DNA of 64,000 bases, taken from Candidatus Omnitrophota bacterium (GTDB taxonomy: Bacteria; Omnitrophota; Gorgyraeia; Zapsychrales; Zapsychraceae). Below, in pieces: positions 15,420-48,746 of the stretch. Within the stretch, counting starts at the first letter, position 1. Each line of letters opens with the position of its first letter. The translations under genes were made by a program, and so were the position numbers. The notes below the pieces were generated by a model. The model was not told the DNA's origin. It saw nothing but the letters and a program-made list of their open reading frames with translations, and did no database searches. The stretch is taken from assembly GCA_015233115.1 (NCBI GenBank), contig JADFYJ010000009.1, forward strand, positions 12,163-76,162, in the 5' to 3' direction.

Positions 15420-15421
15420 GA

Positions 15422-15775
15422 GTCACAAGGACACAAAGTCACAAGGTCACAAAGGGTAGTGAAGATTTGAAAAAAGGCGGATGGGATCACAAAAGATATG
15501 AAAATTATGTCATATGTTTGTGAATTATGCTAATAGGGATGATAGGCAATTTATCGTTTTAACTTTGAGTATTCAGATAATTGTTTTGATTTAAATTTAT
15601 TATTTATATTTTTTTTGTAACTTTGTGCTCGTGAGATTTTTTACATGTGTTATTAAATAAAAAAAAGACCATAAAATTTTTATGGTCTTTTTTATATCGT
15701 TTTTAATTTTTATAATATCGCTTTTTTTATCTTTATTACCCTTTGTGACCTTGTGACTTTGTGCCCTTGTGACCT
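15422..15775. repeat. Intergenic module: inverted arrays of GTCACAA heptamers flanking an AT-rich core with the bidirectional terminator
   Basis: Left AGTCACAAGGACACAAAGTCACAAGGTCACAAAGGG (15422-15458). Right CCCTTTGTGACCTTGTGACTTTGTGCCCTTGTGACC (15740-15775), its reverse complement. Confidence 0.7.
15657..15694. terminator. Bidirectional intrinsic terminator between the convergent genes recJ and rpmB
   Basis: AAAAAAAAGACCATAAAATTTTTATGGTCTTTTTTAT: perfect 10-bp stem flanked by A-run and T-run. Confidence 0.75.
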
Positions 15776-17859: not shown

Positions 17860-17861
17860 TC

Positions 17862-17900
17862 GATGAACCACCGACGCGGTGGTCTATCGGTTTAAAAAAT
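17862..17900 (+). terminator. REP-B hairpin plus T-rich tail after pepF
   Basis: GAACCACCGACGCGGTGGTC then TTTAAAAAATAAATATTTTTTC. Confidence 0.5.
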
Positions 17901-18228: not shown

Positions 18229-18819
18229 ATGAAAGTTGTTAAGTTTTTCATTGCGCTTTTTGTGGGAATTTTGGGGGTAACCAGCGCTGCGTTGGCATTT
18301 GAAAAACGCTTAGCTGCTCCGGCGGATATTCTGCGCCTTAAAAGTGATTTAGTTCAGCAAGTTATTAAGGCCGATGTGGTTCGCATGAAAGATATCCGCG
18401 CCGTATATGGGGATCCGGCTACGATTACAGAGACGGGGAGGCGAATTGTTTTTGATTATAATGACCTTTTTTTGGAATTTGAAAAACAAGTTTTATTTAG
18501 AAAATGGGGTCACGATTTTTCTCAGCCTCAGGCCTGGAGCGCGAATGTTAAAAAAGCCAGAACAGCTATTGAAGGCGGACAAATAACGGGAACTGAATAT
18601 ACTTTGGATCGTTTATACAAAGATTATAAAGATCCAACATTTAAAGTTGAAACTTCCGGCGATGGTGAGCTGTCATATTATTATTATGGAGAAATGAAAT
18701 TAACTTTTGAAAATGTCTATGTTTTGAAATCCTGGAAAGGCAAAAAATTAGAAGCTGTTTATAACACTGGCGTGTTGCAAGCCGTTCCAGAACCAATTCC
18801 TGTTCCTGCGCCTAAATAG
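18229..18819 (+). CDS. Secreted hypothetical protein
   Basis: Signal peptide MKVVKFFIALFVGILGVTSAALA. Stop codon abuts MITE copy J. Confidence 0.55.
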   Translation: MKVVKFFIALFVGILGVTSAALAFEKRLAAPADILRLKSDLVQQVIKADVVRMKDIRAVYGDPATITETGRRIVFDYNDLFLEFEKQVLFRKWGHDFSQPQAWSANVKKARTAIEGGQITGTEYTLDRLYKDYKDPTFKVETSGDGELSYYYYGEMKLTFENVYVLKSWKGKKLEAVYNTGVLQAVPEPIPVPAPK

Positions 18820-18911
18820 GTGTCTGCACTCGGCTGAGCATTGTCGCTCGGCATGTGAGCGGCAAAAAGCATTCTTTTTGAACTAATTGTTCTTGGCTGA
18901 GGTCTGACACC
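18819..18911 (+). mobile_element. MITE-family copy J (intergenic, 93 bp)
   Basis: TIRs GGTGTCTGCACTCGGCTGAG / TGGCTGAGGTCTGACACC. Confidence 0.6.
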
Positions 18912-18932
18912 ATTTTTAAAAAACCCAAAATT

Positions 18933-19448
18933 TTGCTTCATAAAGGTCAACATCTGCAGTTTGTCTGCCAGGGGGGGTGGGAATATATCGAACGGACCAA
19001 TTGTTCTGGGGCCGTGATTATTTTGGCTATGACGGATGATAATAAAGTGTTGTTTGTGGAACAATTCCGCCCGCCGGTTCAAAAGCGGGTTATTGAATTT
19101 CCCGCCGGTTTGGTTGATGATAAATTTTCTACCAAAAAAGAATCTATAATTTCAGCTGCCCGTCGGGAGTTATTCGAAGAGACCGGGTATCAGGCCAAGA
19201 AGATTGTTAAGGTTATAGACGGGCCAGCTTCGTGCGGCACCAGTTCGGAAATGTTAACCATGGTACAGGCTATGGGTTTAAAAAAGGCAGGTCAAGGCGG
19301 CGGCGTTGATGGCGAGGCTATAAAACACTATGAAGTGCCGTTAGCTGAAGTGGAACAATGGCTCAACATGAAACGCCGGAGCGGTTGCTTGATTGGCCCT
19401 AGAATTTATGCTGGACTTTACTTTTTAAACAAATATAATGAGGGTTAA
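18933..19448 (+). CDS. NUDIX hydrolase (ADP-ribose pyrophosphatase-like)
   Basis: Nudix box AARRELFEETGY. Confidence 0.8.
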   Translation: MLHKGQHLQFVCQGGWEYIERTNCSGAVIILAMTDDNKVLFVEQFRPPVQKRVIEFPAGLVDDKFSTKKESIISAARRELFEETGYQAKKIVKVIDGPASCGTSSEMLTMVQAMGLKKAGQGGGVDGEAIKHYEVPLAEVEQWLNMKRRSGCLIGPRIYAGLYFLNKYNEG

Positions 19449-19529
19449 TTATTTGGTTGTTGGTTTTTTGTTATTGGTTGCAGGAATAATCTGATTTTGT
19501 TTAAAAACTATCAACTCACAAATTTATTT

Positions 19530-19660
19530 GGTTTTGATAATTTGCTTTTCCCAAAAACTTAAGCCATCATTCATCAATTAAAATTTTTTTGCGATTACTA
19601 ATTTGTTTTTCCAAAAAACAAAAACTATCATCCATCAACTATCAAAATTAATATACTGAA
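19530..19660 (-). repeat. Two degenerate internal fragments of the MITE family (no TIRs) upstream of fba
   Basis: GATAATTTGCTTTTCCCAAAAAC and CTAATTTGTTTTTCCAAAAAACAAAAACTATCATCCATCAACTATC are reverse-complement-similar to the MITE core GATAGTTGATAGTTTATGGTTTTTGGTTTTTGGAAAAAACAAATTATC. Confidence 0.45.
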
Positions 19661-19670
19661 AGGATTACCC

Positions 19671-20678
19671 ATGGTTTCGTACAAACAATTAGGGTTCGTG
19701 AACACCCGTGAAATGTTCAAAAAGGCAATGGCTGGGAAATATGCTGTTCCGGCTTATAATTTTAACAATATGGAACAATTACAGGCGATCATGACGGCGT
19801 GCGTTGAGTCTCAATCGCCGGTTATTATTCAAGTATCGAGCGGGGCGCGTAAATATGCGGATTCGACTATGTTGCAATATATGGCACAAGGTGCTGTTGA
19901 AATGATGAAGCGTATGGCGAAAGAAAAGAATTTAAAAGAAATTGAAATTGCTCTGCATTTGGACCACGGCGATACGTTCGAACTATGTAAATCATGTATC
20001 GAATCTGGATTTTCTTCGGTTATGATCGATGGTTCACACCATTCTTATGAAGACAATGTCGCGTTGACGAAAAAAGTTGTGGAATATGCGCATCAATTTG
20101 ATGTCACGGTTGAGGGAGAGTTAGGTGTTCTAGCGGGCATTGAAGACGAAGTATCCGCGGAACATTCATCATATACTCGTCCGGAAGAAGTAGAAGATTT
20201 TGTCAAAAAAACCGGGGTTGATTCCTTGGCCATTTCCATTGGAACATCCCATGGCGCTAATAAATTTAAGCCTGACCAATGTACCCGCAATGCCGATGGA
20301 GTTTTAATTCCGCCGCCTTTACGTTTTGATATTTTAGAAGGCGTAGAACAACGGATTCCTGGTTTTCCAATTGTTCTTCATGGCTCCTCTTCCGTTTCTG
20401 TTGAAGATGTCAAAACGATTAATAAATACGGTGGAAAAATGAAAGATACTATTGGAATTCCGGAAGATCAACTGCGTAAAGCCGCCGCGTCAGCTGTCTG
20501 TAAAGTGAATATCGATTCCGATGGAAGATTAGCCATGACCGCCGCGATCCGCAAATATTTTGCTGAATTTCCGGCAGAATTCGATCCAAGAAAATATTTA
20601 GGCCCGGCTCGTTCAGCGTTAGTAGAAATGTACAAATCCAAAAACGTAAATGTGTTGGGTTCAGCAGGTAAAGCGTAA
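19671..20678 (+). CDS. fba: Fructose-bisphosphate aldolase, class II
   Basis: LHLDHGDTFE and GSHHSYEDNV class II motifs. Length 335 aa. Confidence 0.9.
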   Translation: MVSYKQLGFVNTREMFKKAMAGKYAVPAYNFNNMEQLQAIMTACVESQSPVIIQVSSGARKYADSTMLQYMAQGAVEMMKRMAKEKNLKEIEIALHLDHGDTFELCKSCIESGFSSVMIDGSHHSYEDNVALTKKVVEYAHQFDVTVEGELGVLAGIEDEVSAEHSSYTRPEEVEDFVKKTGVDSLAISIGTSHGANKFKPDQCTRNADGVLIPPPLRFDILEGVEQRIPGFPIVLHGSSSVSVEDVKTINKYGGKMKDTIGIPEDQLRKAAASAVCKVNIDSDGRLAMTAAIRKYFAEFPAEFDPRKYLGPARSALVEMYKSKNVNVLGSAGKA

Positions 20679-20684
20679 TAAAAA

Positions 20685-22697
20685 ATGTTGTCAAAAATAG
20701 CGTTAAAAATGGTGTCTGCTCTCGGCGCATTGCGTCGGGATCAGACACTTTTTTTAAAAATTTTATTTTTTGTTTTACTTTTTTCTTTACTCGCGGTTTT
20801 TTATTGCCCGCGTATTCAACTGCATACGGCGGATTTGGGCCGCCACATCAAAAATGGAGAAATTTTTTTAGCTCAGCATAAAATTATTTCCACTAATTTT
20901 TATTCATACACAGAGCCGGATTTCTCAGCTGTCAATCATCATTGGGCAGCAGGTGTGGCTTTTTTTTTAGTCTGGAAATACTTTGGATTTACTGGTTTGT
21001 CATTATTTTATATGGGAATTTTATTGGCTGCTTTCTCGATTATTTTTTTCTGTGCCGTTCGCCTGTCGAATTTTTGGATTGCTTTTTTTTATTCTGTATT
21101 GTGCTTGCCGTTATTAGTCAGCCGGCTGGAAATCCGCCCTGAAGGCTTTAGCTATTTATTTTTAGCGTTGATGATATGGTGTTTACTGTGTCTCAACCGG
21201 TATCTGTGCCAAGACCGGTTTCTGAACTCGACTGCGAATTCTCGCTCGACATCATTTTTTCAAACATTTCTTTTTATTTCTATTATTTTAATCCAAATTC
21301 TTTGGGTCAACTTTCATATATATTTTATTTTCGGTCCATTCTTAGTCGGCATGTGGTGCCTGAACCGGTGTCTGAACTCGACTGTAATTTTATCGAATGT
21401 TTATGGTTTGTGGTTTTTGTTTTTTGGAAAAAACAAATTATATCAACAACCAGCAACCAATAACCAACAACCACCAACCAACAATTTTATTTTACGAGAT
21501 CAGACACTAGGTATTTTGTTTATTGCTGTTATTTTGGCTTGCTTTATTAACCCCGCTGGAATCAAAGGGGCGTTAGAACCTTTTAATATTTTTAAAGAAT
21601 ACGGATATATGCTGGCTGAAAATCAATCTCCAATTTTTATGTTTAAAAGATTTCCCCAGGAGGGATCATATTTATATTTCATGATAATTTTTGGAGTGTC
21701 CGTATTAGTGTGGGGGGCATATACTTGGTGTCTGATCTCGGCTGAAAATTTATTTGCTGTTGATAGTTTTTGGTTTTTGGTTTTTGGAAAAAACAAATTA
21801 TTTCAGCAACCAGCAACCAGCAACCAACAACCAACTACCAACAAGTATATTTTACGAGATCTGACACCGTTTATTCTTGATAAGACACCAGATATTTTAT
21901 TTTTTATAATCTATTTTTTATTTTCTATTTTGGTCTGGAAAATGATTCGCGGAATGGTCCTTTGGGCACTAATCTCGATACCAATTTTAAGTTATATAAC
22001 CTGGTGTCTGATCTCGGCTGCGCATAGGCTTTTGCCATGTACTCGGCAGGAAGTTTTCGTTCCGGATCAACAGGTTTCTGGCCGAGATCTGACACCATTT
22101 TTTCAGTTTATTTTAATAATTCTAGGCATGATTGGCCTACTTTTTGGCCTAATCGGAAAAAACAACATTTACTCGCCTTATCAAAAAAATTATTTGTCTG
22201 CTATTGTCCCACAAACTCAACATTCTTTTTGGTGGTTTCCGAATGTTTTGCGCGAATTTAATAAATTACCAGGAACCATGCCCGGCGCAGAATCAGCTGC
22301 GAATTTTTTTAAACAAAATCATTTGCAGGGGCCTATATTTAACAACTATGATATTGGGGGATATTTGATTTTGAGTCTGTTTCCAGAAAAGGTTTTCGTT
22401 GATAACCGGCCTGAAGCGTACAGCGTTGATTTTTTTAAAAATACATATGTCCCGATGCAGGAAAATGACAATGAGTGGTTCGCGCAAGATCAGAAGTACC
22501 ATTTTAATGTCATTTTCTTTTATCGACATGATTTGACACCTTGGGGACAGTCTTTTTTAATCCGTCGTATACGGGATCCGCAATGGGCGCCAGTATTTGT
22601 GGATGCGTATACTTTGATCCTGGTCAAACGTGAAGGAAAAAATAAAGGAGTGATTGAAAAATATGAGTTACCTCAAGAAATTTTTCAAGTGTATTAA
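20685..22697 (+). CDS. Polytopic membrane protein (GT-C/ArnT-like fold suspected) carrying five in-frame MITE-family inserts
   Basis: Continuous 670-aa ORF. Many TM helices and a C-terminal soluble domain. MITE copies A-E are embedded in frame (see mobile_element entries). Confidence 0.6.
   Translation: MLSKIALKMVSALGALRRDQTLFLKILFFVLLFSLLAVFYCPRIQLHTADLGRHIKNGEIFLAQHKIISTNFYSYTEPDFSAVNHHWAAGVAFFLVWKYFGFTGLSLFYMGILLAAFSIIFFCAVRLSNFWIAFFYSVLCLPLLVSRLEIRPEGFSYLFLALMIWCLLCLNRYLCQDRFLNSTANSRSTSFFQTFLFISIILIQILWVNFHIYFIFGPFLVGMWCLNRCLNSTVILSNVYGLWFLFFGKNKLYQQPATNNQQPPTNNFILRDQTLGILFIAVILACFINPAGIKGALEPFNIFKEYGYMLAENQSPIFMFKRFPQEGSYLYFMIIFGVSVLVWGAYTWCLISAENLFAVDSFWFLVFGKNKLFQQPATSNQQPTTNKYILRDLTPFILDKTPDILFFIIYFLFSILVWKMIRGMVLWALISIPILSYITWCLISAAHRLLPCTRQEVFVPDQQVSGRDLTPFFQFILIILGMIGLLFGLIGKNNIYSPYQKNYLSAIVPQTQHSFWWFPNVLREFNKLPGTMPGAESAANFFKQNHLQGPIFNNYDIGGYLILSLFPEKVFVDNRPEAYSVDFFKNTYVPMQENDNEWFAQDQKYHFNVIFFYRHDLTPWGQSFLIRRIRDPQWAPVFVDAYTLILVKREGKNKGVIEKYELPQEIFQVY
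20712..20749 (+). mobile_element. MITE-family copy A (38-bp hairpin form, in-frame inside ORF 20685..22697)
   Basis: GGTGTCTGCTCTCGGCG-cattg-CGTCGGGATCAGACAC. Confidence 0.5.
21187..21260 (+). mobile_element. MITE-family copy B (degenerate fragment, in-frame)
   Basis: Shares ACCGGTTTCTGAACTCGACTG with copies C and G. No intact TIRs. Confidence 0.35.
21355..21507 (+). mobile_element. MITE-family copy C (long form, in-frame)
   Basis: GGTGTCTGAACTCGACTG ... GGTTTTTGTTTTTTGGAAAAAAC ... (CAACCA)n ... TTTTACGAGATCAGACAC. Confidence 0.65.
21727..21868 (+). mobile_element. MITE-family copy D (long form, in-frame)
   Basis: GGTGTCTGATCTCGGCTG ... TTTTACGAGATCTGACACC. Confidence 0.7.
22004..22097 (+). 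mobile_element. MITE-family copy E (94 bp with a different core, in-frame)
   Basis: Perfect 19-bp TIRs GGTGTCTGATCTCGGCTG / GGCCGAGATCTGACACC. Confidence 0.65.
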
Positions 22698-23589
22698 TCA
22701 TATACGGTGTCTGATCTCGACTGTAATTTCATCGAATGTTCATGGTTTGTGGTTTTGGGTTTTTGGAAAAAACCAATTATTTCAAAAACCAGCAACCAAT
22801 CACCAACAACCAACAACTAACAATTTTATTTTACGAGATCTGACACCGTTACTCGCTGCCTTTTTATTATTTGCCACACCATCGTTCGCTGTCGTTGATT
22901 TTACCGGAGATGTGAACGAATTTATTAAAAATAATCCTGATGGTCAAAAATTTGATTTCATGAGTCGTTATATCGAAACTTTGGGGTATTTGGAGTCGAA
23001 TGAAAAACTTTCAAAACAATTTATTGATGTGAATTTATTGACTGCTCCTGCTGATAAAGTTAAAACTTATTTGGACGCTTTAGTCAACGCGAATGTGAAT
23101 TTACGGGTGTCGCGTAATTACTTAAAACGTTACGGGGCAGTGAATAATGGTTTGATCCGAAAGGTTGTCCAGGATTTTCAATTGGCATGTGATGAGTTGA
23201 TAACTAATAATCAGGGGGAAAGATTATTAGTAGAAAAAATTTATAACGCACAAATGAACCATCAAAAAAGATCAGGGATGAATACAAAGGAATTTTCTTC
23301 GCGCATTGAACAATTAACTGAACAACGACGAGGGACATCAACGAAAATACTGCAAACTTCTATGTGGGCCAGTAAAGTGTTGATCAGTAACAAAGTTGAT
23401 AAATTTGGCAGTTTGTACATGCTTGGGATATCCGCTGATCAACGGAAAGAATTGCTAGAACAGTTATCAAAATATAAAGGTAAAGAATATCGGGGAGAAT
23501 TGCGTCCTGGGCAGTCTTTTTTGCAAGCTAGTATAGCCGCTATCGCTGCGATCCTAGAAGATGAAAGCTGGGGAAATTTAACTAATTGA
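22654..23589 (+). CDS. Secreted hypothetical protein. The N-terminus is encoded by MITE copy F.
   Basis: The ORF passes through the MITE, then a signal-peptide-like LLAAFLLFATPSFA. No canonical start codon downstream of the MITE before the signal peptide. Confidence 0.5.
   Translation: MKNMSYLKKFFKCINHIRCLISTVISSNVHGLWFWVFGKNQLFQKPATNHQQPTTNNFILRDLTPLLAAFLLFATPSFAVVDFTGDVNEFIKNNPDGQKFDFMSRYIETLGYLESNEKLSKQFIDVNLLTAPADKVKTYLDALVNANVNLRVSRNYLKRYGAVNNGLIRKVVQDFQLACDELITNNQGERLLVEKIYNAQMNHQKRSGMNTKEFSSRIEQLTEQRRGTSTKILQTSMWASKVLISNKVDKFGSLYMLGISADQRKELLEQLSKYKGKEYRGELRPGQSFLQASIAAIAAILEDESWGNLTN
22707..22847 (+). mobile_element. MITE-family copy F (long form, forms the 5' end of ORF 22654..23589)
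   Basis: GGTGTCTGATCTCGACTG ... TTTTACGAGATCTGACACC. Confidence 0.7.
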
Positions 23590-23617
23590 TTGACATGGTG
23601 TTAAGCCGGTTCTAATA
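23589..23617 (+). promoter_or_regulatory. Near-consensus sigma70-type promoter
   Basis: TTGACA (23589-23594), 17-bp spacer, TAATAT (23612-23617). Followed by AGGAGG and an ATG. Confidence 0.6.
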
Positions 23618-23637
23618 TGTTTCAGGAGGATATAAGA

Positions 23638-23811
23638 ATGCAAATTAAAGATAAGGTTGAGCTGTTAAAAGATCGTCAGGTCGTCGATGAAATTAAGCGG
23701 CATTTATGGATAGAAAGTGAGAAGGCGGGACGCGATATCGGTTTTGATTCAGCTGCCGCAGACTGGCTAGAAAAGTTTTCAAAAACTTGGATGGATTACT
23801 ATTGGAAATAA
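23638..23811 (+). CDS. Small hypothetical protein (57 aa) behind a consensus promoter
   Basis: TTGACA-N17-TAATAT at 23589-23617. AGGAGG RBS 7 nt before ATG 23638. Translation MQIKDKVELLKDRQVVDEIKRHLWIESEKAGRDIGFDSAAADWLEKFSKTWMDYYWK. Confidence 0.6.
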   Translation: MQIKDKVELLKDRQVVDEIKRHLWIESEKAGRDIGFDSAAADWLEKFSKTWMDYYWK

Positions 23812-23909
23812 TAAAAAAGGTGTTTGATTTCGACTAAAATAAATGGTGTATACCCTCGACAAAAATTGACGCCCGCCATCTGACAATTAATTATTTTATA
23901 GGAGAATAT

Positions 23910-25538
23910 ATGGATTTAACTTTAACAAAATTAAAAAATTTTTCAGGTCGCCCCGGTCCTATGGTTCTGGTCGTTATGGATGGGGTGGGAATTGGTAAAC
24001 GAGATGAGAGCGACGGGGTATTTCTCGCCAATACACCTAATCTGAATAAATACATGAAAAGCCCTCTATACGCAGAACTTCAAGCGCATGGCAAAGCCGT
24101 TGGTATGCCTTCGGATGAAGATATGGGAAATAGCGAAGTAGGGCATAACGCGTTGGGAGCCGGCCGGGTTTTTGCCCAGGGAGCTACACTTGTACAGAAT
24201 TCGATCGATGACGGCAGTATTTTTAAAACCGATATTTGGTCTCAGCTCATTTCAGGTGTAAATCAACAAGATAAGACGTTTCATTTTATCGGTTTATTAT
24301 CTGACGGCAATGTTCATTCTCATATCAATCATTTAATGGCCATGCTCCGGCAATGTGCCAAACAAGGGGTAAAAAAAGTCCGGGTGCATGTATTGTTAGA
24401 TGGCCGTGATGTGTATGAAAAAAGCGCGGGTCAGTATATTGATCAAACGGAAGCAGTATTGAAAGAATTAAACGCTCAATCTGGAATAGATTATGCGATC
24501 GCTTCTGGCGGCGGACGCATGGTCACAACTATGGATCGGTATAATGCGGATTGGACGATTGTTAAACGCGGGTGGGACGCGCATGTCCTTGGAAAAGGTC
24601 GTCTGTTTGTTTCCGCTTCCGAGGCAGTCCAAACATTTTATGCCGAGGATCCTAAGATCACGGATCAATATTTATCGTCTTTTGTTATCGCTAAAAATGG
24701 TCAGCCGATCGGGACAATTCAAGACGGGGATTCGGTGGTATTTTTTAATTTCCGCGGTGACCGTGCGATTGAAATCACCCAAGCTTTTGAAGGCGATGCT
24801 TCGTTTGAAAAAATCGACCGGGAACGTGTTCCTAAAGTTTTGTATGCTGGGATGATGCAGTACGATGGCGATATGCATGTGCCTAAGAATTATTTAGTTA
24901 ATCCTCCGGTAATTGAGAAGACGTTAGGAGATTATTTGTGCGCCAACGGGGTGACGTCATTTGCCATATCAGAAACTCAAAAATTTGGCCATGTAACGTA
25001 TTTTTGGAACGGGAATAAGACCGGATATATAAACTCAAAAATGGAATATTATGAGGAAATCCCATCCGATAAAGTTCGTTTTGACCAGGCTCCCAAAATG
25101 AAAGCCTATGAAATTACCAACCGCACAATTGAATTGCTGAAATCCGGGAAATATAAATTTGGGCGTTTGAATTTTGCGAATGGCGATATGGTGGGACATA
25201 CCGGAATCCCTGAAGCTATTATTACCGCGGTTTCGACGGTCGATGAGTGTGTGGGTCGTTTGATACAAGTGGTTAATGAATTAGATGGTATTGTATTGGT
25301 TACCGCTGATCACGGGAACGCGGATGAAATGTTCACGGTTAAAAAGGGCGTTAAAATTGTCAGTACCGCGCATTCATTGAATCCGGTGCCATTTTATATT
25401 GTGGATCAAAATTGTCATGGAGAATATTCCATGGCTAAGCTTCCTCATAAAGGTTTAGCAAATGTCGCGGCGACTGTCATGAATTTATTAGGTTTTGAAA
25501 AACCTGAAGATTATGAATCGTCGCTTATAAAATTTTGA
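23910..25538 (+). CDS. gpmI: 2,3-bisphosphoglycerate-independent phosphoglycerate mutase
   Basis: iPGM-type N-terminus VVMDGVGIG and C-terminal TADHGNADEM metal-binding motif. 542 aa. Confidence 0.9.
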   Translation: MDLTLTKLKNFSGRPGPMVLVVMDGVGIGKRDESDGVFLANTPNLNKYMKSPLYAELQAHGKAVGMPSDEDMGNSEVGHNALGAGRVFAQGATLVQNSIDDGSIFKTDIWSQLISGVNQQDKTFHFIGLLSDGNVHSHINHLMAMLRQCAKQGVKKVRVHVLLDGRDVYEKSAGQYIDQTEAVLKELNAQSGIDYAIASGGGRMVTTMDRYNADWTIVKRGWDAHVLGKGRLFVSASEAVQTFYAEDPKITDQYLSSFVIAKNGQPIGTIQDGDSVVFFNFRGDRAIEITQAFEGDASFEKIDRERVPKVLYAGMMQYDGDMHVPKNYLVNPPVIEKTLGDYLCANGVTSFAISETQKFGHVTYFWNGNKTGYINSKMEYYEEIPSDKVRFDQAPKMKAYEITNRTIELLKSGKYKFGRLNFANGDMVGHTGIPEAIITAVSTVDECVGRLIQVVNELDGIVLVTADHGNADEMFTVKKGVKIVSTAHSLNPVPFYIVDQNCHGEYSMAKLPHKGLANVAATVMNLLGFEKPEDYESSLIKF

Positions 25539-25547
25539 AAGGCTATT

Positions 25548-26546
25548 ATGGAAAAATCACCAGCCATGTATGACAAAGAAAAATTTCAAATGATTTTCGA
25601 ATATTCGCCTATCGCCATCTGGGAAGAAGATTTCTCTGCTGTGGCGGAATTGGGAGAATATCTAAAGAAACGGAAAGTGACAGATATCAAAAAATATCTG
25701 ACCGAACATCCGAAATTGGTTACTGAAACTTTTTGTAAATTGAAGATCCTTGACGTGAATATTGCGGCTTTAGAACTTTATGGCGCGAAAACTAAAAAAC
25801 AATTGATCGATAATTTAGGCAAGGTGGTCCATAAATCCGCCTTAGCGACTTTTGTTGATGAGTTTAGCGCGTTATTAAGCGGGCAGAATACGTTTGAAAC
25901 TGAATTTAAAAGCCGTACTTTGGGCGGACGATTATACGATGTTCATCTGAAAGTTTCAGTACCGGAAATTTATAAAACAACATTTAAGCGGGTCGTTGTG
26001 ACTTTGCAAGATATTTCTGTTCAAAAACGTTATGAACGCCATTTAAAGCAATTGGCTCAAATAGACGGAATGACCAAAGTTTTAAATCATTCTGCCATAG
26101 AATATCGTTTAGAAGAAGAAATAGCTCGGTCGAAACGTTACCGTTTAGAATTGGCTTGCATGATGATCGACATGGACAATTTTAAGCAAGTTAATGATAA
26201 GTATGGCCATCAAAAAGGTGATCAGGTTATTAAAAAAACTGCTGAATTGATCCGTCAACATTTGCGTGAAGTCGATATTGTCGGCCGTTATGGAGGAGAT
26301 GAATTTATAATTATACTTCCAGAAACACCGAAACAAAACGCGATTACGGCCGCAGAACGCCTCCGTAAATTATTTGATGACCGTATGCATGACATGTCTG
26401 TTAAAATACCATTTTGTACAGTTAGCATTGGAGTTGGAGGAATGCCGGATTCTGATGTGAACAGCTCGAAAGATATGATCAAGAAAATCGACCACGGGAT
26501 GTATGAGGCCAAGAAATCCGGAAAAAATTGTGTTATTTTAATTTAA
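25548..26546 (+). CDS. Diguanylate cyclase (PAS-like N-terminus plus GGDEF)
   Basis: RYGGDEFIIILPE active-site motif. RxxD I-site-like region upstream. Confidence 0.85.
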   Translation: MEKSPAMYDKEKFQMIFEYSPIAIWEEDFSAVAELGEYLKKRKVTDIKKYLTEHPKLVTETFCKLKILDVNIAALELYGAKTKKQLIDNLGKVVHKSALATFVDEFSALLSGQNTFETEFKSRTLGGRLYDVHLKVSVPEIYKTTFKRVVVTLQDISVQKRYERHLKQLAQIDGMTKVLNHSAIEYRLEEEIARSKRYRLELACMMIDMDNFKQVNDKYGHQKGDQVIKKTAELIRQHLREVDIVGRYGGDEFIIILPETPKQNAITAAERLRKLFDDRMHDMSVKIPFCTVSIGVGGMPDSDVNSSKDMIKKIDHGMYEAKKSGKNCVILI

Positions 26547-26549
26547 TTA

Positions 26550-27518
26550 ATGTCGAAAACATTACAACTAACTTGGTGTCTGGCTAACAGGTGTCTGAAC
26601 TCGACTTTAAATGTGTCGAATGTTGATGGTTTGTGGTTTTCGGTTTTTGGAAAAAACCAATTATTTCGACAACCAACAACCAACAACCAACAACCAACAA
26701 CCAACAATTTTATTTTACGAGATCTGACACCAATTCTTTTAAATTATATTCTAACCTCGCACTTAAAGATCAATCCGTTTGATATTATTGAACAGACGGA
26801 TAAGCGTCAAACTTCATTTAAATTTTATCCTTCCACCCGTCAACAAGCCCGCCAGTTAATGAGGCAATTTAATCAGTTACATATTCAAAATGTTTCGGTA
26901 AAATTGGAGGTTTTGCAAGATCAGGATTGGCAAAATAAATGGAAAAAAGATTTTAAGCCTTTTGCGTTAACGTCAGATCTGACCATCGTGCCAGCATGGT
27001 TAAAAGAGAATTATATTTTTATCGACAGCCATCTCGCATTTGGAACCGGCCTGCACGAAACAACCCGTTTTATGACTGAGCTGATTAAATCAGTTAAGGG
27101 ACAATTTTCCACTTTTTTAGATATTGGTACTGGAACGGGTATATTGACGTTGGCCGCGCTTAAATATGGGGCCAAAGACGTAACCGCTATGGACATCAGC
27201 GAAGACTGTGTCACAAACGCGAAAGCGAATTTTGCGTTAAACGGGGTCAGTAAATATCGGTTATTTTGTAAAGATTTTGCCAAGATGCCAGCGCATAAAA
27301 CATATGACTTGGTTGCTGCCAATTTGGTTTCTCATGATTTATTGGCTATGTCAGAAAAAATTATTTCACGCGTTAATAAAACCGGATATTTAGCCATTTC
27401 CGGCATATCGTTGGATAATTTTGAAGCTGTAAAAACCAAATTTTCAAAATCGCTTAATTGCGTAAAAATAAAAAAAGGCAAAACCTGGGCAGCTTTATTA
27501 TATAAAAACGGTGTCTGA
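26550..27518 (+). CDS. prmA: Ribosomal protein L11 methyltransferase. The N-terminal about 60 codons run through MITE copy G.
   Basis: FGTGLHETTRFM and LDIGTGTGILTLAALKYGA SAM-binding motifs. The stop codon lies inside the TIR of MITE copy H. Confidence 0.8.
   Translation: MSKTLQLTWCLANRCLNSTLNVSNVDGLWFSVFGKNQLFRQPTTNNQQPTTNNFILRDLTPILLNYILTSHLKINPFDIIEQTDKRQTSFKFYPSTRQQARQLMRQFNQLHIQNVSVKLEVLQDQDWQNKWKKDFKPFALTSDLTIVPAWLKENYIFIDSHLAFGTGLHETTRFMTELIKSVKGQFSTFLDIGTGTGILTLAALKYGAKDVTAMDISEDCVTNAKANFALNGVSKYRLFCKDFAKMPAHKTYDLVAANLVSHDLLAMSEKIISRVNKTGYLAISGISLDNFEAVKTKFSKSLNCVKIKKGKTWAALLYKNGV
26575..26731 (+). mobile_element. MITE-family copy G (long form, at the 5' end of prmA)
   Basis: GGTGTCTGGCTAACAGGTGTCTGAACTCGAC ... 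(CAACCAACAA)n ... TTTTACGAGATCTGACACC. Confidence 0.7.
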
Positions 27519-27652
27519 TCTCGGCTGCCCGTAGATTGATAGTTGATAGTTTATGGTTTTTGGTTTTTGGAAAAAACAAATTATCTCATCAACCAGCAGC
27601 CAACAACCATCAACTCTATTTTACGGGATCTGACACCATTTATTTGACACCA
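27510..27652 (+). mobile_element. MITE-family copy H (contains the prmA stop codon; intergenic)
   Basis: GGTGTCTGATCTCGGCTG ... TTTTACGGGATCTGACACC, then a partial duplicate ATTTATTTGACACCATTTATT. Confidence 0.7.
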
Positions 27653-27660
27653 TTTATTGG

Positions 27661-29244
27661 ATGACTATTATGTTTAAACTTTTTACTAACAAAAAATTTA
27701 TCACCTTTTGCCTTTTGGGCGTTTGTTTAATCGGCGCAACATTTCGTCTTTGGCATATTACGGCTAATAATTTTTTTAATTACGACGAGGCAGTCTGGAT
27801 GGGGAGGATTCGTCCAATTACTGACGTTATTTTTAAATTTCGTCCTTTTAATCATTCGCAATTTTGGGAGAGTTTTAACACATTGGGTTCTGTGGCATTA
27901 AAAACTGATAAAGCATTATGGACTTTTGTTTTAGGTTGTCGGGCGTATTTTACTCTTCCACAAAGTTGGTTTTTTCCAAGAATGGTCTCTGCCATATTTG
28001 GTATTTTAAGCTTCTTTATGGTTTACTGTTTTGCTAACAAATATTTTAGCCAAAATGTCGCGCGATGGAGTGTTTTTATTTTCGCGCTATTGCCGGGTCA
28101 GGTTTATTATTCCCGATTGGGGATACAAGAAAGCATGGTGATATTTTTATTTTTAACGGGAGTTTATTTTTATTTATTTCGCTGTCGCTGGTGGCAGCAA
28201 GCTTTATTTTCCGGATTTTTTTGGGGTTGTGTTTTTTTGGCGGATTACCGCATGATTATTATTCCGGGACTGATTTTGTTCGCGGAAGCATATTGGGGGT
28301 TGGTTGAAAAAAAAGGATTTCAGAGTCGGCGGTATATCTGGAGTATGGTGGTCTTTGGGGTAATTATTTTTGGTGTCGGGAGCCTCAATCACGGGGCCAA
28401 TACATTTGTTACGTTTGCCTGGATGTTTCATCAACAAAATTTATCACACGGCACATTTGAAATTTTTAATTTACTATCTTATCCATATTATTTGTTCCGC
28501 CTGGAAAGCGTTTTTTGGGGATGTTTATTTTTTGCCAATATATATTTTTTGATAAAACGTCAATGGCATATGGCTTTTCCTTTTATGTTTGTTATTTTAG
28601 TGATGTTAATTTTTTCTTTTCCTCAAGAAAAGGGCGTTCGTTATGTGTGTTTTGCCATGCCTTTTATGGTTATAGCCGGCGCGTTGATGGTGGATCAGTT
28701 AATGGCGAATAGATCGCGCACAGTTAAAATTTTATTAGGTATTTTTTTATTATTCATGAGTATTGATCATTTTAAAAAGGATTTGGCCATTGCTGGCGCT
28801 GAAACTGCGTACGAGGAAAGTGTCATCGCGATAAAAAATACAGCAGGCTCTAACGCGAAGTTTATTTCCAGCCAGGATGTGATTCAGGCTTTGTTTATGG
28901 ATGACCCGGAATCTGCCATGCCCGTTTATAACAATGTCAATTATTTTGTGCAGTTGTATCAACACGGTTATCGGTATTTGATTATTGAGCCCCAAGCGTA
29001 TGTGTCATTTACTGAGGACACCAAACGATTTAGTCCTAAATTAATCGGGCCTTTAAATTTCGCGTTAACACAATTGAAACCTGTATGGGTATATCCGCAT
29101 TTTAGTTCCATTATGCTGGAGCGGTTTGTCCTGGAACACAACGAAAACCTCACGCGATCAATTCAATTTTTACATGATGATCAAAATAATCACTATCATT
29201 GTTTACGGGTTTATGAGCTAAAAAATTTTTTTGGTAAATTATGA
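27661..29244 (+). CDS. Polytopic membrane glycosyltransferase-like protein (GT-C / PMT-ArnT family)
   Basis: About 11 predicted TM helices with a periplasmic C-terminal domain. Fold-level call only. Confidence 0.55.
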   Translation: MTIMFKLFTNKKFITFCLLGVCLIGATFRLWHITANNFFNYDEAVWMGRIRPITDVIFKFRPFNHSQFWESFNTLGSVALKTDKALWTFVLGCRAYFTLPQSWFFPRMVSAIFGILSFFMVYCFANKYFSQNVARWSVFIFALLPGQVYYSRLGIQESMVIFLFLTGVYFYLFRCRWWQQALFSGFFWGCVFLADYRMIIIPGLILFAEAYWGLVEKKGFQSRRYIWSMVVFGVIIFGVGSLNHGANTFVTFAWMFHQQNLSHGTFEIFNLLSYPYYLFRLESVFWGCLFFANIYFLIKRQWHMAFPFMFVILVMLIFSFPQEKGVRYVCFAMPFMVIAGALMVDQLMANRSRTVKILLGIFLLFMSIDHFKKDLAIAGAETAYEESVIAIKNTAGSNAKFISSQDVIQALFMDDPESAMPVYNNVNYFVQLYQHGYRYLIIEPQAYVSFTEDTKRFSPKLIGPLNFALTQLKPVWVYPHFSSIMLERFVLEHNENLTRSIQFLHDDQNNHYHCLRVYELKNFFGKL

Positions 29245-30254
29245 AAAAATTTATTTTAATAATTACTATTGTCATTATCGTCCTAGTCGCCTATCTTGTT
29301 TTACCTAAAACATATTCTCAGACTCGTTCGATGATGGGCTCCTATGTCCGCATCGATATATGCTCAAATTGGCCTGCTGCAAAGATTAATCAGATTTATA
29401 GTGAAATCTGGAAAGGGATTAATGAGCGGGTTCAGCGGTTTGATAAATATTCTGCGAATAGTGAGATTTCGATAATTAATAGGTCGTTTCCAGATCCGGT
29501 AAAAATTTCCGATGATCTTTATGAATTACTTAACACTTCGGTTCAATTTTCTCAGTTGACCCAAGGCGGTTTTGATATTACAGTCGAACCATTGATCGGG
29601 ATTTGGAAAAAAGCTGAAGAAAAAAATATCCTACCTTCTGCGGATGATATATCAATAGCAGTGGCGGCGATAGGCAGTAATGCCCTTAATCTTATGGGTA
29701 ATGATATGGTCCGATTACGGAACCCCATTGTAAAATTAGATGTGGGCGGTATTGCGAAAGGCTATATTGTCGATTGGGTGGTTAGTGACTTGCATGAGCA
29801 TGGTCTTAAAAATTTTTTAGTTGATGCCAGTGGAAATATGTACGCATCGGGTATTAATAGTAGTTATAAACCGTGGACCATTGGTATTGAAGATCCTCAT
29901 TCAAATATGGCGGCTCTGGCCGTTATTCGATTATCTGATGAAGCCATTTCAACTTCAGGAGACGAGCATCGATATTATAATATTAATGGGAAGCATTATT
30001 CACACATCATTAACCCGCATACCGGACAACCAGTTTTAAATATGAGCAGTGTGACTGTGTTGGCCCCGACCGCAGGCGCTGCGGATGCGTTGTCGACAGG
30101 GCTAAGCGTGCTGGGTGTGGCTGATGGATTAGCTTTGATCGAGTCATTGGGACCAGGTTATGCTTGTTTTATATTGACCATGAATGGTACAGATCGTCAG
30201 ACATTTTTTTCAAGTCATTATAAAGATTTCAATCAAAAAGGCGAGAGGCTATAG
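29241..30254 (+). CDS. apbE: FAD:protein FMN transferase (ApbE family), membrane-anchored
   Basis: LDVGGIAKGYIVD and DASGN motifs. N-terminal TM anchor. Confidence 0.85.
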   Translation: MKKFILIITIVIIVLVAYLVLPKTYSQTRSMMGSYVRIDICSNWPAAKINQIYSEIWKGINERVQRFDKYSANSEISIINRSFPDPVKISDDLYELLNTSVQFSQLTQGGFDITVEPLIGIWKKAEEKNILPSADDISIAVAAIGSNALNLMGNDMVRLRNPIVKLDVGGIAKGYIVDWVVSDLHEHGLKNFLVDASGNMYASGINSSYKPWTIGIEDPHSNMAALAVIRLSDEAISTSGDEHRYYNINGKHYSHIINPHTGQPVLNMSSVTVLAPTAGAADALSTGLSVLGVADGLALIESLGPGYACFILTMNGTDRQTFFSSHYKDFNQKGERL

Positions 30255-41730: not shown

Positions 41731-41768
41731 TACTTGGTTACTCTGTTACTCGGTCACTTTGTTACTAT
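41731..41768 (-). repeat. Inverted (TTACTCGG-like) array upstream of hldD
   Basis: TTACTTGGTTACTCTGTTACTCGGTCACTTTGTTACTATT. Confidence 0.6.
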
Positions 41769-47573: not shown

Positions 47574-48746
47574 ATGACTCAGCTCAAAAAAAATAAATGG
47601 TGTCTGCTCTCGGTTAACCTATTTTTCAGCCGAGATCTGACACCATTTATTTTGACACCATTTATTTTTTTTATTTGCTTCGCGCTTTTTCCTGCTAACG
47701 CTTTCGCGTTATATTATTCCGGCGGTCCTGGTTACACCGATACTTTTGGCCGGGTGGTCTCAGCGGATGCCATGGTTTTTTCGTCCGTTGCGGCGCAGTC
47801 TTTTATGCCGTCTGCCGCGTCTACACCTATGGCACAAATGGCTATTGCCCAGGATATCTCCGTGCCTGGCGGCGGAGTGACTGCGGCGAGCGGCATCCGT
47901 ATCCGCATTCCTTCCGGCTTGAATATGACCTGGGACGGATGTCCCACGACCACGGCAACCATTACCGGCAGTGCTGTGACCAAAGTTTCGACTACGGTCA
48001 ATTGCGCGGATTCCAGCAAAACCATGGTGATTAGCGTAAACACCCCTTTCTCCAACGGCGACTCTATTACAGTCAGCGGCCTTTCTTTTGTGAATTTCAA
48101 CGCGCTTGGTTCAGGTTACTTGGGATTGGACATTACCAACAACGGCAGTCTTATCGCGACTGATCCATACTCTAAAGAAATCGGCGGTTTCTCCGGCGGA
48201 ACAGGATATAGTGCCGCCTTTGCCAGGGCGGCTACTGTCAGTCTCATCGGAATGAGCAGCGGCTCCGCGCAATCTTTTCTGCCGTCAGCCGCGTCCACAC
48301 CAGTCAGCACCATGACCATTTATCAGGACACAGCCATAGGCGGCACCAGCATAACAGCAGCCAATGATATCCGGATTAAAATTCCTTCCGGCTTAAATAT
48401 GACCTGGAATACTGGAATTACCTCGGCCGCAATTGGAGGGCCGTCTATGGCCAAAGTCGCGCCAGACGTAACCTATGAGAATAGCGGCAAGACCTTGGTC
48501 ATTAATGTCAGCGCGGATTTTGTAAATGGCGATAGTGTGACAGTCGGTGGTTTGTCCTTGACCAATTTTAACAGCATGGGCCAAGGTTATCTGGGAGTCG
48601 AAATCGACCACGCCGGCAACACGACATCCTCAGACACATACACCAAAGAAATCGGCCCCTATTCCGGCGGAACAGGAGAAAGTCACAGTACAAGTATGAA
48701 CACCCGGGGCGACCCGAATGGAATACAATTCGCGACACCGTTTTAA
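47574..48746 (+). CDS. Secreted protein with two tandem repeats of about 155 aa, function unknown. The N-terminus runs through MITE copy I.
   Basis: Internal duplication (SFMPSAASTP...IPSGLNMTW...GLSFVNFN twice). Signal peptide FIFFICFALFPANAFA. Confidence 0.55.
   Translation: MTQLKKNKWCLLSVNLFFSRDLTPFILTPFIFFICFALFPANAFALYYSGGPGYTDTFGRVVSADAMVFSSVAAQSFMPSAASTPMAQMAIAQDISVPGGGVTAASGIRIRIPSGLNMTWDGCPTTTATITGSAVTKVSTTVNCADSSKTMVISVNTPFSNGDSITVSGLSFVNFNALGSGYLGLDITNNGSLIATDPYSKEIGGFSGGTGYSAAFARAATVSLIGMSSGSAQSFLPSAASTPVSTMTIYQDTAIGGTSITAANDIRIKIPSGLNMTWNTGITSAAIGGPSMAKVAPDVTYENSGKTLVINVSADFVNGDSVTVGGLSLTNFNSMGQGYLGVEIDHAGNTTSSDTYTKEIGPYSGGTGESHSTSMNTRGDPNGIQFATPF
47599..47660 (+). mobile_element. 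MITE-family copy I (46-bp short form plus tail, at the 5' end of ORF 47574..48746)
   Basis: GGTGTCTGCTCTCGG-ttaacctatttttcag-CCGAGATCTGACACC, then ATTTATTTTGACACCATTTATT as in copy H. Confidence 0.6.

What the first reader, a model, noticed from the sequence alone, without database searches (positions are those of the whole stretch)
18819..27652. RPE-like MITE family embedded in-frame in coding sequences and always followed by a hydrophobic segment
At least ten copies (18819, 20712, 21187, 21355, 21727, 22004, 22707, 26575, 27510, 47599) share the TIRs GGTGTCTGATCTCGGCTG / CGAGATCTGACACC. The long form has a core GGTTTTTGGTTTTTGGAAAAAACAAATTATTTC plus a (CAACCA)n microsatellite.

Five copies lie inside one 670-aa membrane-protein ORF (20685..22697). 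Others form the 5' ends of prmA, ORF 22654 and ORF 47574. Every genic copy is read in the same frame: WCLIS..FGKNKLFQQPATNNQQPTTNNFILRDLTP, with no stop codon. Each is followed at once by a TM helix or signal-peptide h-region, for example ..RDLTPFILDKTPDILFFIIYFLF, ..RDLTPLLAAFLLFATPSFA, ..RDLTPFILTPFIFFICFALFPANAFA.

This is the hallmark described for Rickettsia palindromic elements. Here it sits in a metabolically different, Ech-hydrogenase-bearing anaerobe-like genome. Either the element preferentially inserts, or is retained, at loop/TM boundaries, or it donates an N-terminal module.
Basis: partly seen in the sequence, partly recalled or inferred. Interest (0 to 1): 0.85.

Follow-up and report, generated by a model that had tools for sequence, protein, structure and literature searches.

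The report
Palindromic mini-transposons read through inside genes
An uncultured Omnitrophica bacterium carries a family of small hairpin-forming mobile DNA repeats, several of which sit inside intact genes and are read as extra peptide loops or N-terminal extensions; this is a new example of a phenomenon already known from Rickettsia.

Summary
The repeat family is real: ten copies share the ends GGTGTCTGATCTCG / CGAGATCTGACACC (0 expected by chance). They come in 40-46, 93-94 and 128-142 bp forms, and all can fold as hairpins. The source is a Candidatus Omnitrophica MAG (locus tags HQL26_). A syntenic 21.6-kb locus of a sister MAG has no copy, and 11 orthologues of the 670-aa protein lack all five inserts, so these are insertions. 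The host genes stay intact.

The long form is stop-free in only one of six frames, and all four genic long copies use it. Variation among copies shows no third-codon-position excess. Read-through therefore looks like a survival filter, not a selected peptide.

The "always followed by a hydrophobic segment" claim is overstated: prmA is an exception, and copy 20711 uses another frame. It has ordinary causes. The host is a GT-C-fold polytopic membrane protein, six of ten copies lie at gene starts, and the element's right flank is T-rich (Phe/Ile/Leu codons).

No target-site duplication, parent transposase or copy outside this genome was found. The "microsatellite" is a heptamer, not a hexamer. 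Verdict: a lineage-specific MITE/RPE-like element, a new member of a known kind, of moderate interest.

The parts
18819..18911 (+). Medium-form copy (93 bp), intergenic. Its first G completes the TAG stop of ORF 18229-18819. Its right end replaces the region where the sister has a terminator, RBS and the ATG of the NUDIX gene; here NUDIX starts at TTG 18933.
   Evidence: hairpin z=-3.5; about 65-70% alignable with copy 22003 by eye.
19453..19645 (-). Three TIR-less partial copies of the long-form core in reverse orientation. They fill a 222-bp spacer that is only 44 bp in the sister genome.
   Evidence: nhmmer hits at 19598-19645, 19453-19521 and 19536-19576; sequence; sister spacer.
20711..20750 (+). 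Short-form copy (40 bp hairpin) in codons 9-22 of the 670-aa GT-C membrane protein. It is read in frame +1 (VSALGALRRDQTL), just before TM1.
   Evidence: hairpin z=-5.8; 16 extra residues compared with the sister.
21187..21262 (+). Degenerate copy: about four tandem left-end-like units (GGTGTTTACT / GTGTCTCAACC / GGTATCTG.. / GGTTTCTGAACTCGACTG) with a decayed right end. Read as LCLNRYLCQDRFLNSTANSRSTSFFQ; absent from all orthologues.
21355..21508 (+). Long-form copy (142 bp from 21367) with a 12-nt tandem duplication of the left end. It makes a 52-aa insert in an inter-helix segment.
   Evidence: (E=3e-45); pLDDT about 50.
21727..21889 (+). Long-form copy (142 bp to 21868) plus a degenerate second right end (GACACC at 21884). 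It makes a 48-aa insert, followed by FILDKTPD.
   Evidence: pLDDT 41-47.
22003..22096 (+). Medium-form copy (94 bp). It makes a 32-aa insert, WCLISAAHRLLPCTRQEVFVPDQQVSGRDLTP.
   Evidence: hairpin z=-5.0.
22706..22847 (+). Long-form copy at the junction between the GT-C gene and the next gene. It replaces the native start and n-region (MKKFFS in the sister) of a secreted 254-aa-type protein. The ORF is now open back to ATG 22663, which overlaps the upstream gene.
   Evidence: NCBI calls the 308-aa product from ATG 22663 (P0185).
26575..26731 (+). Long-form copy (142 bp from 26590) with a duplicated left end, inserted after codon 8 of prmA. It carries 5.6 perfect ACAACCA units.
27510..27658 (+). 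Long-form copy shortened by 14 bp (two heptamer units; 128 bp to 27637) plus a perfect duplication of the right end, TGACACCATTTATT. The TGA in the left TIR is the stop codon of prmA, and the element ends 3 nt before ATG 27661.
47599..47666 (+). Short-form copy (46-bp hairpin) plus a duplicated right end. It makes a 21-aa insert (WCLLSVNLFFSRDLTPFILTP) between the n-region (MTQLKKNK) and the h-region of the signal peptide of ORF 47574-48746.
   Evidence: homologue P0220 has a 22-aa signal peptide before LYYFGG, against 45 aa before LYYSGG here.
20685..22697 (+). Host gene: a 670-aa polytopic GT-C-fold glycosyltransferase-like membrane protein carrying five inserts. Orthologues are 485-578 aa.

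Best explanation
This is a lineage-specific family of small, non-autonomous, fully palindromic mobile elements. It is MITE-like in anatomy and RPE-like in behaviour.

Anatomy: all copies share 14-18-bp terminal inverted repeats around at least three different cores.
- Short form: a 40-46 bp bare hairpin.
- Medium form: 93-94 bp.
- Long form: 142 bp, with arms made of inverted heptamer repeats, (GTTTTTG)n and (ACAACCA)n, around a GGAAAAAACMAATTAT loop.

History (inferred): after the split from the sister lineage, copies spread locally into a 9-kb stretch, probably by short-range hopping driven by a transposase encoded elsewhere. They landed in or next to A-rich|T-rich sequence.

Survival filter (inferred from what is shown): in this tightly packed genome, a copy survived only in one of two situations. 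Either it fell between genes, or it fell inside a gene in the one orientation and frame without stops, with a net length that keeps the frame, at a permissive position. Permissive positions here are the first ~10-15 codons, the n/h boundary of signal peptides, and short Lys/Arg-rich inter-helix segments of a membrane protein.

Outcome: the encoded peptide (WCLIS..FGKNKLFQQPATNNQQPTTNNFILRDLTP) is passenger sequence tolerated as a flexible loop or N-terminal extension. The apparent coupling to a following hydrophobic segment comes from those positions plus the element's T-rich right flank.

Shown: the repeats, the empty sites, the intact hosts, the single open frame and the flank bias. Inferred: transposase-mediated mobility, local hopping and the selective filter.
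For: - TIR hits far exceed chance.
- The five long copies are 80-91% identical.
- Every form folds as a hairpin, z from -2.5 to -5.8.
- The sister MAG locus L016 has the same gene order and zero copies.
- All five inserts in the 670-aa protein are absent from 11 orthologues, which keep all invariant residues.
- The prmA, ORF 22663 and NUDIX junctions were resolved against the sister.
- The long form is open only in frame +2, and all four genic long copies use it.
- All six genic copies with both TIRs intact (the 20711 right end is degenerate) are 1 mod 3 in length, while the two intergenic copies are 0 and 2 mod 3.
- Variable columns among the genic copies fall 12/13/8 on codon positions 1/2/3, so there is no sign of selection on the peptide.
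- Left flanks are A-rich (p=0.0016) and right flanks T-rich (p<5e-5).
- Nine of ten copies lie within 8.7 kb (p~5e-6). Six of ten lie at gene starts against 0.62 expected (p~1e-4).
- In the AF2 model (pTM 0.81) the inserts have pLDDT of about 41-60 and the core is confident. The fold is GT-C.
- In-frame MITE/RPE insertions are an established phenomenon (PMC10969869, PMC5896051).
Against: - No target-site duplication of 3-10 bp could be found at any copy, even allowing offsets. At 18819 the flanks AAATA|ATTTT are contiguous in the sister.
- No transposase or full-length IS with these TIRs is in the window.
- No second genome carries the family, so mobility is inferred only from empty sites.
- The rest of this MAG could not be retrieved, so genome-wide frame and location statistics are missing.
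- All copies that have TIRs are in the + orientation, including the two intergenic ones, which selection for an open frame does not explain.
- Tandemly iterated termini and TIR-less core copies are not typical of simple cut-and-paste MITEs.
Confidence: 0.75

Rival explanations
1. The elements are REP/REPIN-like palindromes, or PATE-like elements, moved as single-stranded hairpins by a HUH (RAYT or IS200/IS605-type) enzyme, or by an IS110/IS1111-type recombinase. They would not be DDE-transposase MITEs.
For: - No TSD is detectable, as expected for HUH- or IS110-type mobility.
- Every form is an end-to-end hairpin.
- All TIR-bearing copies share one orientation, which matches the direction of almost all genes here. 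This would fit strand-specific ssDNA integration.
- The same genome holds a separate classical REP-like family with a 5' GTAG.
Against: - The termini are true inverted repeats starting at the very ends, not subterminal hairpins with a conserved 5' GTAG or a fixed target tetranucleotide. The left flanks share no 4-5-mer.
- REPs are extragenic, whereas 8 of 10 copies here are genic.
- No RAYT or TnpA gene is in the window (only some of the ORFs were scanned).
Confidence: 0.12
2. The inserts have been exapted. Either the element supplies a functional N-terminal or loop module for envelope proteins, or its heptanucleotide tract (7 is not a multiple of 3) acts as a slipped-strand ON/OFF switch at the 5' end of envelope-protein genes.
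For: - Six of ten copies sit at gene starts.
- ORF 22663 has lost its native start and can only be made with an element-encoded N-terminus.
- Copy 26590 has 5.6 perfect heptamers.
- Intergenic copy 27510 differs by exactly two units, while all four genic copies keep 142 bp.
- The hosts include a GT-C glycosyltransferase and two secreted proteins.
Against: - Variation among copies shows no excess at the third codon position (12/13/8).
- The peptide is found in no other protein among 1.84 billion representatives.
- The inserts are modelled as low-confidence loops.
- Most tracts are imperfect and short (3-6 units).
- One host, prmA, is a cytoplasmic housekeeping gene.
- No population data are available.
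Confidence: 0.1
3. This is not mobile DNA. The peptides are ancestral low-complexity loops, or the copies arose only by local duplication or gene conversion, or by misassembly of a MAG.
For: - Extreme clustering: 9 of 10 copies within 8.7 kb.
- No TSD.
- A single MAG is the only source.
Against: - Sites are empty in the syntenic sister and in all 11 orthologues.
- A tenth copy lies 20 kb away in an unrelated gene.
- Copies sit in five unrelated genes and two spacers.
- Divergence of 9-20% between copies, together with ORFs that stay intact, argues against assembly chimeras.
Confidence: 0.03

Closest known systems
Rickettsia palindromic elements (RPE-1 to RPE-10; Ogata et al. 2000, 2002, as summarised in PMC10969869)
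   Same: - Palindromic repeats of about 100-150 bp.
- Many copies are inserted in frame into unrelated, still functional genes.
- One conserved stop-free reading frame.
- Inserts sit at positions compatible with the fold. Here they are low-pLDDT loops in a confident model.
   Different: - Unrelated host phylum (Omnitrophica MAG); no sequence relationship was tested or is expected.
- Sharp 14-18-bp TIRs are shared by three size classes.
- The core is built of inverted heptamer repeats.
- Up to five copies sit in one gene.
- Strong bias to gene starts and to a 9-kb neighbourhood.
Prokaryotic MITEs with intragenic, in-frame copies (Coxiella QMITE1/2, intragenic ERIC, Neisseria Correia/NEMIS; PMC5896051, PMC10969869)
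   Same: - Small, non-coding, TIR-bounded and hairpin-forming.
- Several size variants.
- They overlap gene ends and sometimes extend or fuse ORFs.
   Different: - No TSD (Correia elements have TA; most MITEs have 2-10 bp).
- No identified parent IS.
- The fraction of copies that are genic and read through (8 of 10) is far higher than described for those families.
REP/REPIN elements mobilised by RAYTs
   Same: - Short palindromes, or doublets of them, that form hairpins.
- No TSD.
- Clustered, with iterated units.
   Different: - No 5' GTAG motif.
- Intragenic, not extragenic.
- A separate bona fide GTAG-type REP family coexists in the same window and is strictly intergenic.
Cyanobacterial STRR heptanucleotide repeats and simple-sequence contingency loci (own knowledge)
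   Same: - Tandem heptamers.
- When translated they give QQPTTNN-type low-complexity ORFs, like the spurious hits from cyanobacteria and Haemophilus.
- A 7-nt unit would shift the frame on slippage.
   Different: Here the heptamers are short inverted arms packaged inside a TIR-bounded element. No length polymorphism has been shown.

Membership tests
MITE (prokaryotic miniature inverted-repeat transposable element) | Small size (under about 300-500 bp) with no transposase ORF | tested here: met
   Copies are 40-142 bp. The only open frame encodes a low-complexity peptide.
MITE (prokaryotic miniature inverted-repeat transposable element) | Terminal inverted repeats shared by all copies | tested here: met
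   GGTGTCWGATCTCG is at both ends of 9 copies, against 0 expected.
MITE (prokaryotic miniature inverted-repeat transposable element) | Target-site duplication flanking each copy | tested here: not met
   No consistent 3-10 bp direct repeat, even allowing +/-3 nt offsets, and no TA. The flanks of 18819 are contiguous in the sister. A 2-nt TSD or erosion cannot be excluded. Genic copies are 1 mod 3 in length, which would fit a TSD of 2, 5 or 8 bp.
MITE (prokaryotic miniature inverted-repeat transposable element) | Multiple dispersed copies with empty sites in relatives | tested here: met
   Ten copies lie in five genes and two spacers. The syntenic sister locus has none, and 11 orthologues lack the inserts.
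MITE (prokaryotic miniature inverted-repeat transposable element) | A cognate autonomous IS with the same TIRs | not testable with these tools
   None was found in the 64-kb window. The rest of the MAG could not be fetched. Scans of species-representative genomes and JGI metagenomes gave only single-end chance hits.
Rickettsia palindromic elements (RPE) | Palindromic repeat of about 100-150 bp inserted in frame into functional ORFs | tested here: met
Rickettsia palindromic elements (RPE) | Sequence membership in RPE-1 to RPE-10 and a Rickettsiales host | not tested
   No RPE consensus library was available and Rfam gave no hit. The host is Candidatus Omnitrophica, so it is filed as analogous, not as a member.
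REP/REPIN-RAYT | Conserved 5' GTAG, extragenic location and an associated RAYT gene | tested here: not met
   The termini have no GTAG and 8 of 10 copies are genic. No RAYT was seen among the ORFs scanned. A different family in the window does have GTAG.
Simple-sequence contingency (phase-variation) locus | A perfect tandem tract, unit length not a multiple of 3, inside the 5' coding region | tested here: inconclusive
   5.6 perfect heptamers in prmA copy 26590. The other tracts are 76-90% matches over 5.4-5.9 units.
Simple-sequence contingency (phase-variation) locus | Unit-number polymorphism within the population that switches the frame | not testable with these tools
   Only a consensus MAG sequence is available. 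The one hint is that intergenic copy 27510 is shorter by exactly two units.

The most novel reading that the evidence does not exclude
The element is more than tolerated junk. It would be targeted to Lys-codon (A-rich) to Phe/Ile/Leu-codon (T-rich) junctions, that is, the boundary between a cytoplasmic loop or n-region and a TM helix or h-region.

It would deliver a heptanucleotide tract there. That would give this Omnitrophica lineage one of two things:
- a mobile, slippage-driven ON/OFF switch for envelope-protein genes; or
- a general route for growing loops and N-terminal extensions in them.
Probability: 0.1. Interest if true: 0.7.

Novelty: new member of a known kind. Interest (0 to 1): 0.4.

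Why it matters
It extends the 'selfish DNA read through inside protein-coding genes' phenomenon to a free-living candidate phylum. That phenomenon is best known from Rickettsia. The example is unusually dense: five inserts in one intact GT-C membrane protein, plus inserts inside two signal peptides and at the N-terminus of PrmA.

It gives a clean natural experiment on which positions of a polytopic membrane protein and of a signal peptide tolerate 13-52 extra residues.

It also offers a simple nucleotide-level explanation (an A-rich|T-rich flank bias) for why such inserts end up at loop/TM boundaries in an AT-rich genome.

For annotation, it warns that extra loops and long N-termini in Omnitrophica proteins can be repeat-derived.

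Tried and rejected
- Peptide profile against the 5.8-billion-protein word-indexed database. It returned only short QQPTTNN low-complexity ORFs and not even the window's own proteins, so it was uninformative.
- The same profile against 1.84 billion cluster representatives with full HMMER. The only real hit was the window's own ORF 22663 (P0185); the rest were low-complexity.
- Exact TIR 18-mer in species-representative genomes and JGI metagenomes. It gave 15 and 33 singletons in unrelated, mostly GC-rich taxa. None has a partner TIR or element similarity, so these are chance hits.
- TIR-pair pattern for the long form in metagenomes: 0 hits.
- BLASTN against plasmids and phages: no match.
- Rfam at gathering threshold and tRNA scan: nothing.
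- Retrieving more of the source contig by exact-protein look-up: not on record.
- Microhomology between the elements and the sister's empty sites. An intriguing ATTTTACGGGAT in the sister's prmA matches the element's right subterminus. However, local-alignment scores are at chance level after nine tests (best p=0.04-0.05). Rejected as evidence for homology-guided insertion.
- Element-borne promoters. The best sigma-70-like site in the region (TTGACA-16-TATTAT, 27644-27671) is made by the duplicated right end, but its -10 box overlaps the next start codon. The total count is only about 2 sd above shuffles. Not pursued.
- Membrane side of the five inserts. No coordinates or topology predictor were available. 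The positive-inside argument (the sister's loops are DYKKKLPSG, SKFFKKY, CQKMKIIR) suggests the cytoplasmic side but stays an inference.
- Literature searches for MITEs in Omnitrophica/Omnitrophota found nothing.

Full report

Yes. The left-end pattern GGTGTCTGATCTCGGCTG (up to 3 mismatches) occurs 12 times, against 0.00 expected. The right-end pattern CGAGATCTGACACC (up to 2 mismatches) occurs 16 times, against 0.14 expected.

Pairing the ends gives nine bounded copies:

| Copy (TIR to TIR) | Length |
|---|---|
| 18819-18911 | 93 bp |
| 20711-20750 | 40 bp |
| 21367-21508 | 142 bp |
| 21727-21868 | 142 bp |
| 22003-22096 | 94 bp |
| 22706-22847 | 142 bp |
| 26590-26731 | 142 bp |
| 27510-27637 | 128 bp |
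| 47599-47644 | 46 bp |

There is also a degenerate array of left ends at 21187-21262.

- A profile of the five long copies finds each of them at E=1e-37 to 1e-46. It also finds three TIR-less core fragments in reverse orientation in the 19449-19670 spacer.
- The long copies are 80-91% identical to each other.
- Every form folds end to end as a hairpin, with z from -2.5 to -5.8 against shuffles.
- TRF shows that both arms of the long core have period 7: (GTTTTTG) about 3-4 times and (ACAACCA) about 5.4-5.9 times.
- The termini are often iterated in tandem. There is a 12-15-nt left-end unit at 21355 and 26575. The right end TGACACCATTTATT is repeated perfectly at 27631-27658, again at 47638-47666, and degenerately at 21862-21889.

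**2. Source and empty sites**

The 670-aa ORF is identical to NCBI protein HQL26_06185 of a 'Candidatus Omnitrophica bacterium' MAG, on a 94-kb contig. Its nearest relative in 5.8 billion proteins is only 51-59% identical (HQL25_03195).

That relative's contig (GCA_015233195.1, JADFYE010000005.1) is syntenic over the whole region. The shared order is PepF, two small ORFs, NUDIX, aldolase, the membrane protein, a 254-aa ORF, iPGM, GGDEF, PrmA, ThyA and DHFR. It contains no copy of the element.

In an alignment with 11 orthologues (485-578 aa), all five element segments of the 670-aa protein are insertions absent from every other sequence. All invariant residues are retained. Codon-level comparison with the sister resolves the other junctions:

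- **prmA.** The insert follows codon 8 (MSKTLQLT|W...).
- **ORF 22663.** The sister starts MKKFFSLIVIFFLSVSIGGA|VVDF. Here the start and n-region are replaced by the element, and the frame is open back to an ATG that overlaps the upstream gene.
- **NUDIX gene.** The right end of copy 18819 sits where the sister has a terminator, RBS and ATG. The gene now begins at TTG 18933.
- **prmA stop codon.** It is the TGA inside the left TIR of copy 27510.
- **Stop of ORF 18229.** The TAG is completed by the first G of copy 18819.
- **ORF 47574.** A homologue (P0220) has a 22-aa signal peptide before LYYFGG. Here 45 residues precede LYYSGG. The excess is the 46-bp element plus its duplicated end, placed between MTQLKKNK and the h-region.

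All three fail, so the core interpretation stands.

**3. Why one frame, and is the peptide selected?**

Six-frame translation shows that the long form is stop-free only in frame +2 of the + orientation (CLIS...RDLT). The other five frames carry 1-4 stops in nearly every copy, with one exception: frame -0 of copy 26590 is also open. All four genic long copies use frame +2.

Short and medium forms are open in 2-5 frames, and copy 20711 is in fact read in frame +1. So 'every genic copy in the same frame' is not strictly true.

All six genic copies with both TIRs intact are 1 mod 3 long. The two intergenic copies are 0 and 2 mod 3. Intergenic copy 27510 differs from the rest by exactly 14 nt, which is two heptamer units.

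Among the four genic long copies, variable columns fall 12/13/8 on codon positions 1/2/3. There is no third-position excess, so there is no sign of purifying selection on the peptide.

The peptide profile matches nothing but the window's own ORF among 1.84 billion representatives.

The simplest reading is that the open frame is a filter on which insertions survive.

**4. The 'hydrophobic segment' pattern**

The host of five copies has a confident AF2 model (pTM 0.81), in which the inserts have pLDDT of about 41-60. Its fold matches GT-C glycosyltransferases: DPY19, ArnT, AglB and AftA.

The inserts fall at the N-terminus and in four short inter-helix segments. In the sister these segments are Lys/Arg-rich: DYKKKLPSG, NKFIDRDWRG, SKFFKKY and CQKMKIIR. 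In such a protein, any tolerated insert is flanked by TM helices.

Across the window, six of ten copies lie within 60 nt after, or 30 nt before, a start codon. The expectation is 0.62 (p~1e-4). For exported proteins the next segment is then the h-region. For prmA it is not, which is the counter-example to 'always'.

The 8 nt left of the elements are A-rich (p=0.0016) and the 8 nt to the right are T-rich (p<5e-5, consensus RTTTWTT). In the read frame..GAC ACC|ATT TAT TT.. gives T-P-F-I-L. Part of the 'hydrophobic segment' is therefore encoded by the element's own terminal extension or by its preferred target.

In a 40% GC genome, A-rich to T-rich junctions are exactly Lys-run to Phe/Ile/Leu-run junctions. 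These are n/h boundaries and cytoplasmic-loop/TM boundaries. I cannot separate target preference from a longer, AT-rich TIR. One empty site (sister AAATA|ATTTT at 18819) favours a pre-existing target.

**5. Mechanism**

What is shown:
- The sequences are inserted.
- They share termini.
- They are strongly clustered: nine of ten within 8.7 kb (p~5e-6).

What is inferred:
- Mobilisation in trans by an enzyme encoded elsewhere.
- Short-range hopping.

No TSD was found, and no parent IS is in the window. A HUH- or IS110-type mechanism therefore remains a live rival to a DDE-type MITE. The uniform + orientation of all TIR-bearing copies would fit strand-specific ssDNA integration, but the number of copies is small.

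A suggestive 12-nt match between the sister's prmA (ATTTTACGGGAT, coding ILRD) and the element's right subterminus is not significant after multiple testing.

**6. Distribution and novelty**

- Exact-TIR scans of 185,579 species-representative genomes and of the JGI metagenome contigs returned only single-end chance matches.
- Plasmid and phage BLAST and Rfam found nothing.
- Literature searches found no report of MITEs in Omnitrophica/Omnitrophota.

In-frame insertion of palindromic elements or MITEs is well documented. Examples are RPEs in Rickettsia, intragenic ERIC, Coxiella QMITEs and Anabaena MITEs (PMC10969869 and PMC5896051).

This is therefore a new, lineage-specific member of a known kind. 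It stands out for its density (five in one gene), its bias to gene starts, its heptamer-repeat core and its iterated termini.

**7. Limits**

- Only 64 kb of one MAG could be examined, and the source assembly is not in the look-up index.
- The membrane side of the inserts, actual translation of the inserts, the start codon used for ORF 22663, and any heptamer length polymorphism are all untested.

Noticed in passing
window 48834-51778: Diversity-generating-retroelement-like cassette. ORF 48834-50507 (FGE-sulfatase/C-type-lectin fold, Pfam 9e-16) has a variable repeat at its 3' end (50379-50494). ORF 50764-51537 has a bAvd-like domain (2e-19) plus a weak N-terminal MutS_I hit. A template repeat lies at 51663-51778. 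Most TR/VR mismatches are an A in the TR against G, T or C in the VR (13, 11 and 5 of 50 over the 151-nt stretch compared, which includes unaligned flanks). No reverse transcriptase ORF is adjacent.
   Followed up: partly
window 30449, 44702, 45355, 46645, 46734, 46823, 50618, 57005: A second, strictly intergenic repeat family with the classical REP signature: 5' GTAG followed by a GC-rich palindrome (CGTAGGGGCGATCNCCCGATCGCCCGTAACAAAAT). Three copies form an 89-bp tandem array at 46566-46860. No RAYT gene was looked for beyond the ORFs scanned.
   Followed up: no
window 52104-52792 (- strand): A nucleotidyltransferase (MNT, 52104-52427) and HEPN (52397-52792) pair. These are among the very few minus-strand genes in the window and look like a toxin-antitoxin module. 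It sits where the DGR reverse transcriptase would be expected.
   Followed up: no
window 17857-17891, 51001-51048, 62571-62640: A repeated GC-rich perfect hairpin, AACCGATGGACCACCGCGTCGGTGGTCCATCGGT, lying at or just after the 3' ends of genes at 17857 and 62571 (the 51001 copy lies within ORF 50764-51537). It is terminator-like but is a conserved repeat family.
   Followed up: no
window 41704-41774 and 42821-42907; 15411-15476, 58030-58068, 60167-60232; 61194-61249: More short tandem repeats.
- An 8-nt unit (TTGTTACT/CGGTTACT) lies at the 5' ends of ORFs 41689 and 42852.
- GTCACAAGGTCACAAAGGGTAG-type repeats lie at three intergenic sites.
- A (TACTACA)n heptamer tract is also present.
The genome is unusually rich in period-7 and period-8 repeats.
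   Followed up: no
L016 12544-14460 (sister MAG) versus window 27661-30254: There are two synteny breaks between the two Omnitrophica MAGs. The sister carries an NgoPII-type restriction enzyme plus a DNA methylase between the 254-aa ORF and iPGM. The window carries a PMT_2/GT39-like membrane protein and ApbE between prmA and thyA.
   Followed up: no
L016 18005-18017 versus window 26710-26722 / 27616-27627: The sister's uninterrupted prmA contains TATTTTACGGGAT (coding ILRD). This matches 12 of 13 nt of the right subterminal sequence of the element that is inserted in the window's prmA. Local-alignment p is about 0.05 before correction for nine tests, so it is probably chance, but it is unexplained.
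   Followed up: partly
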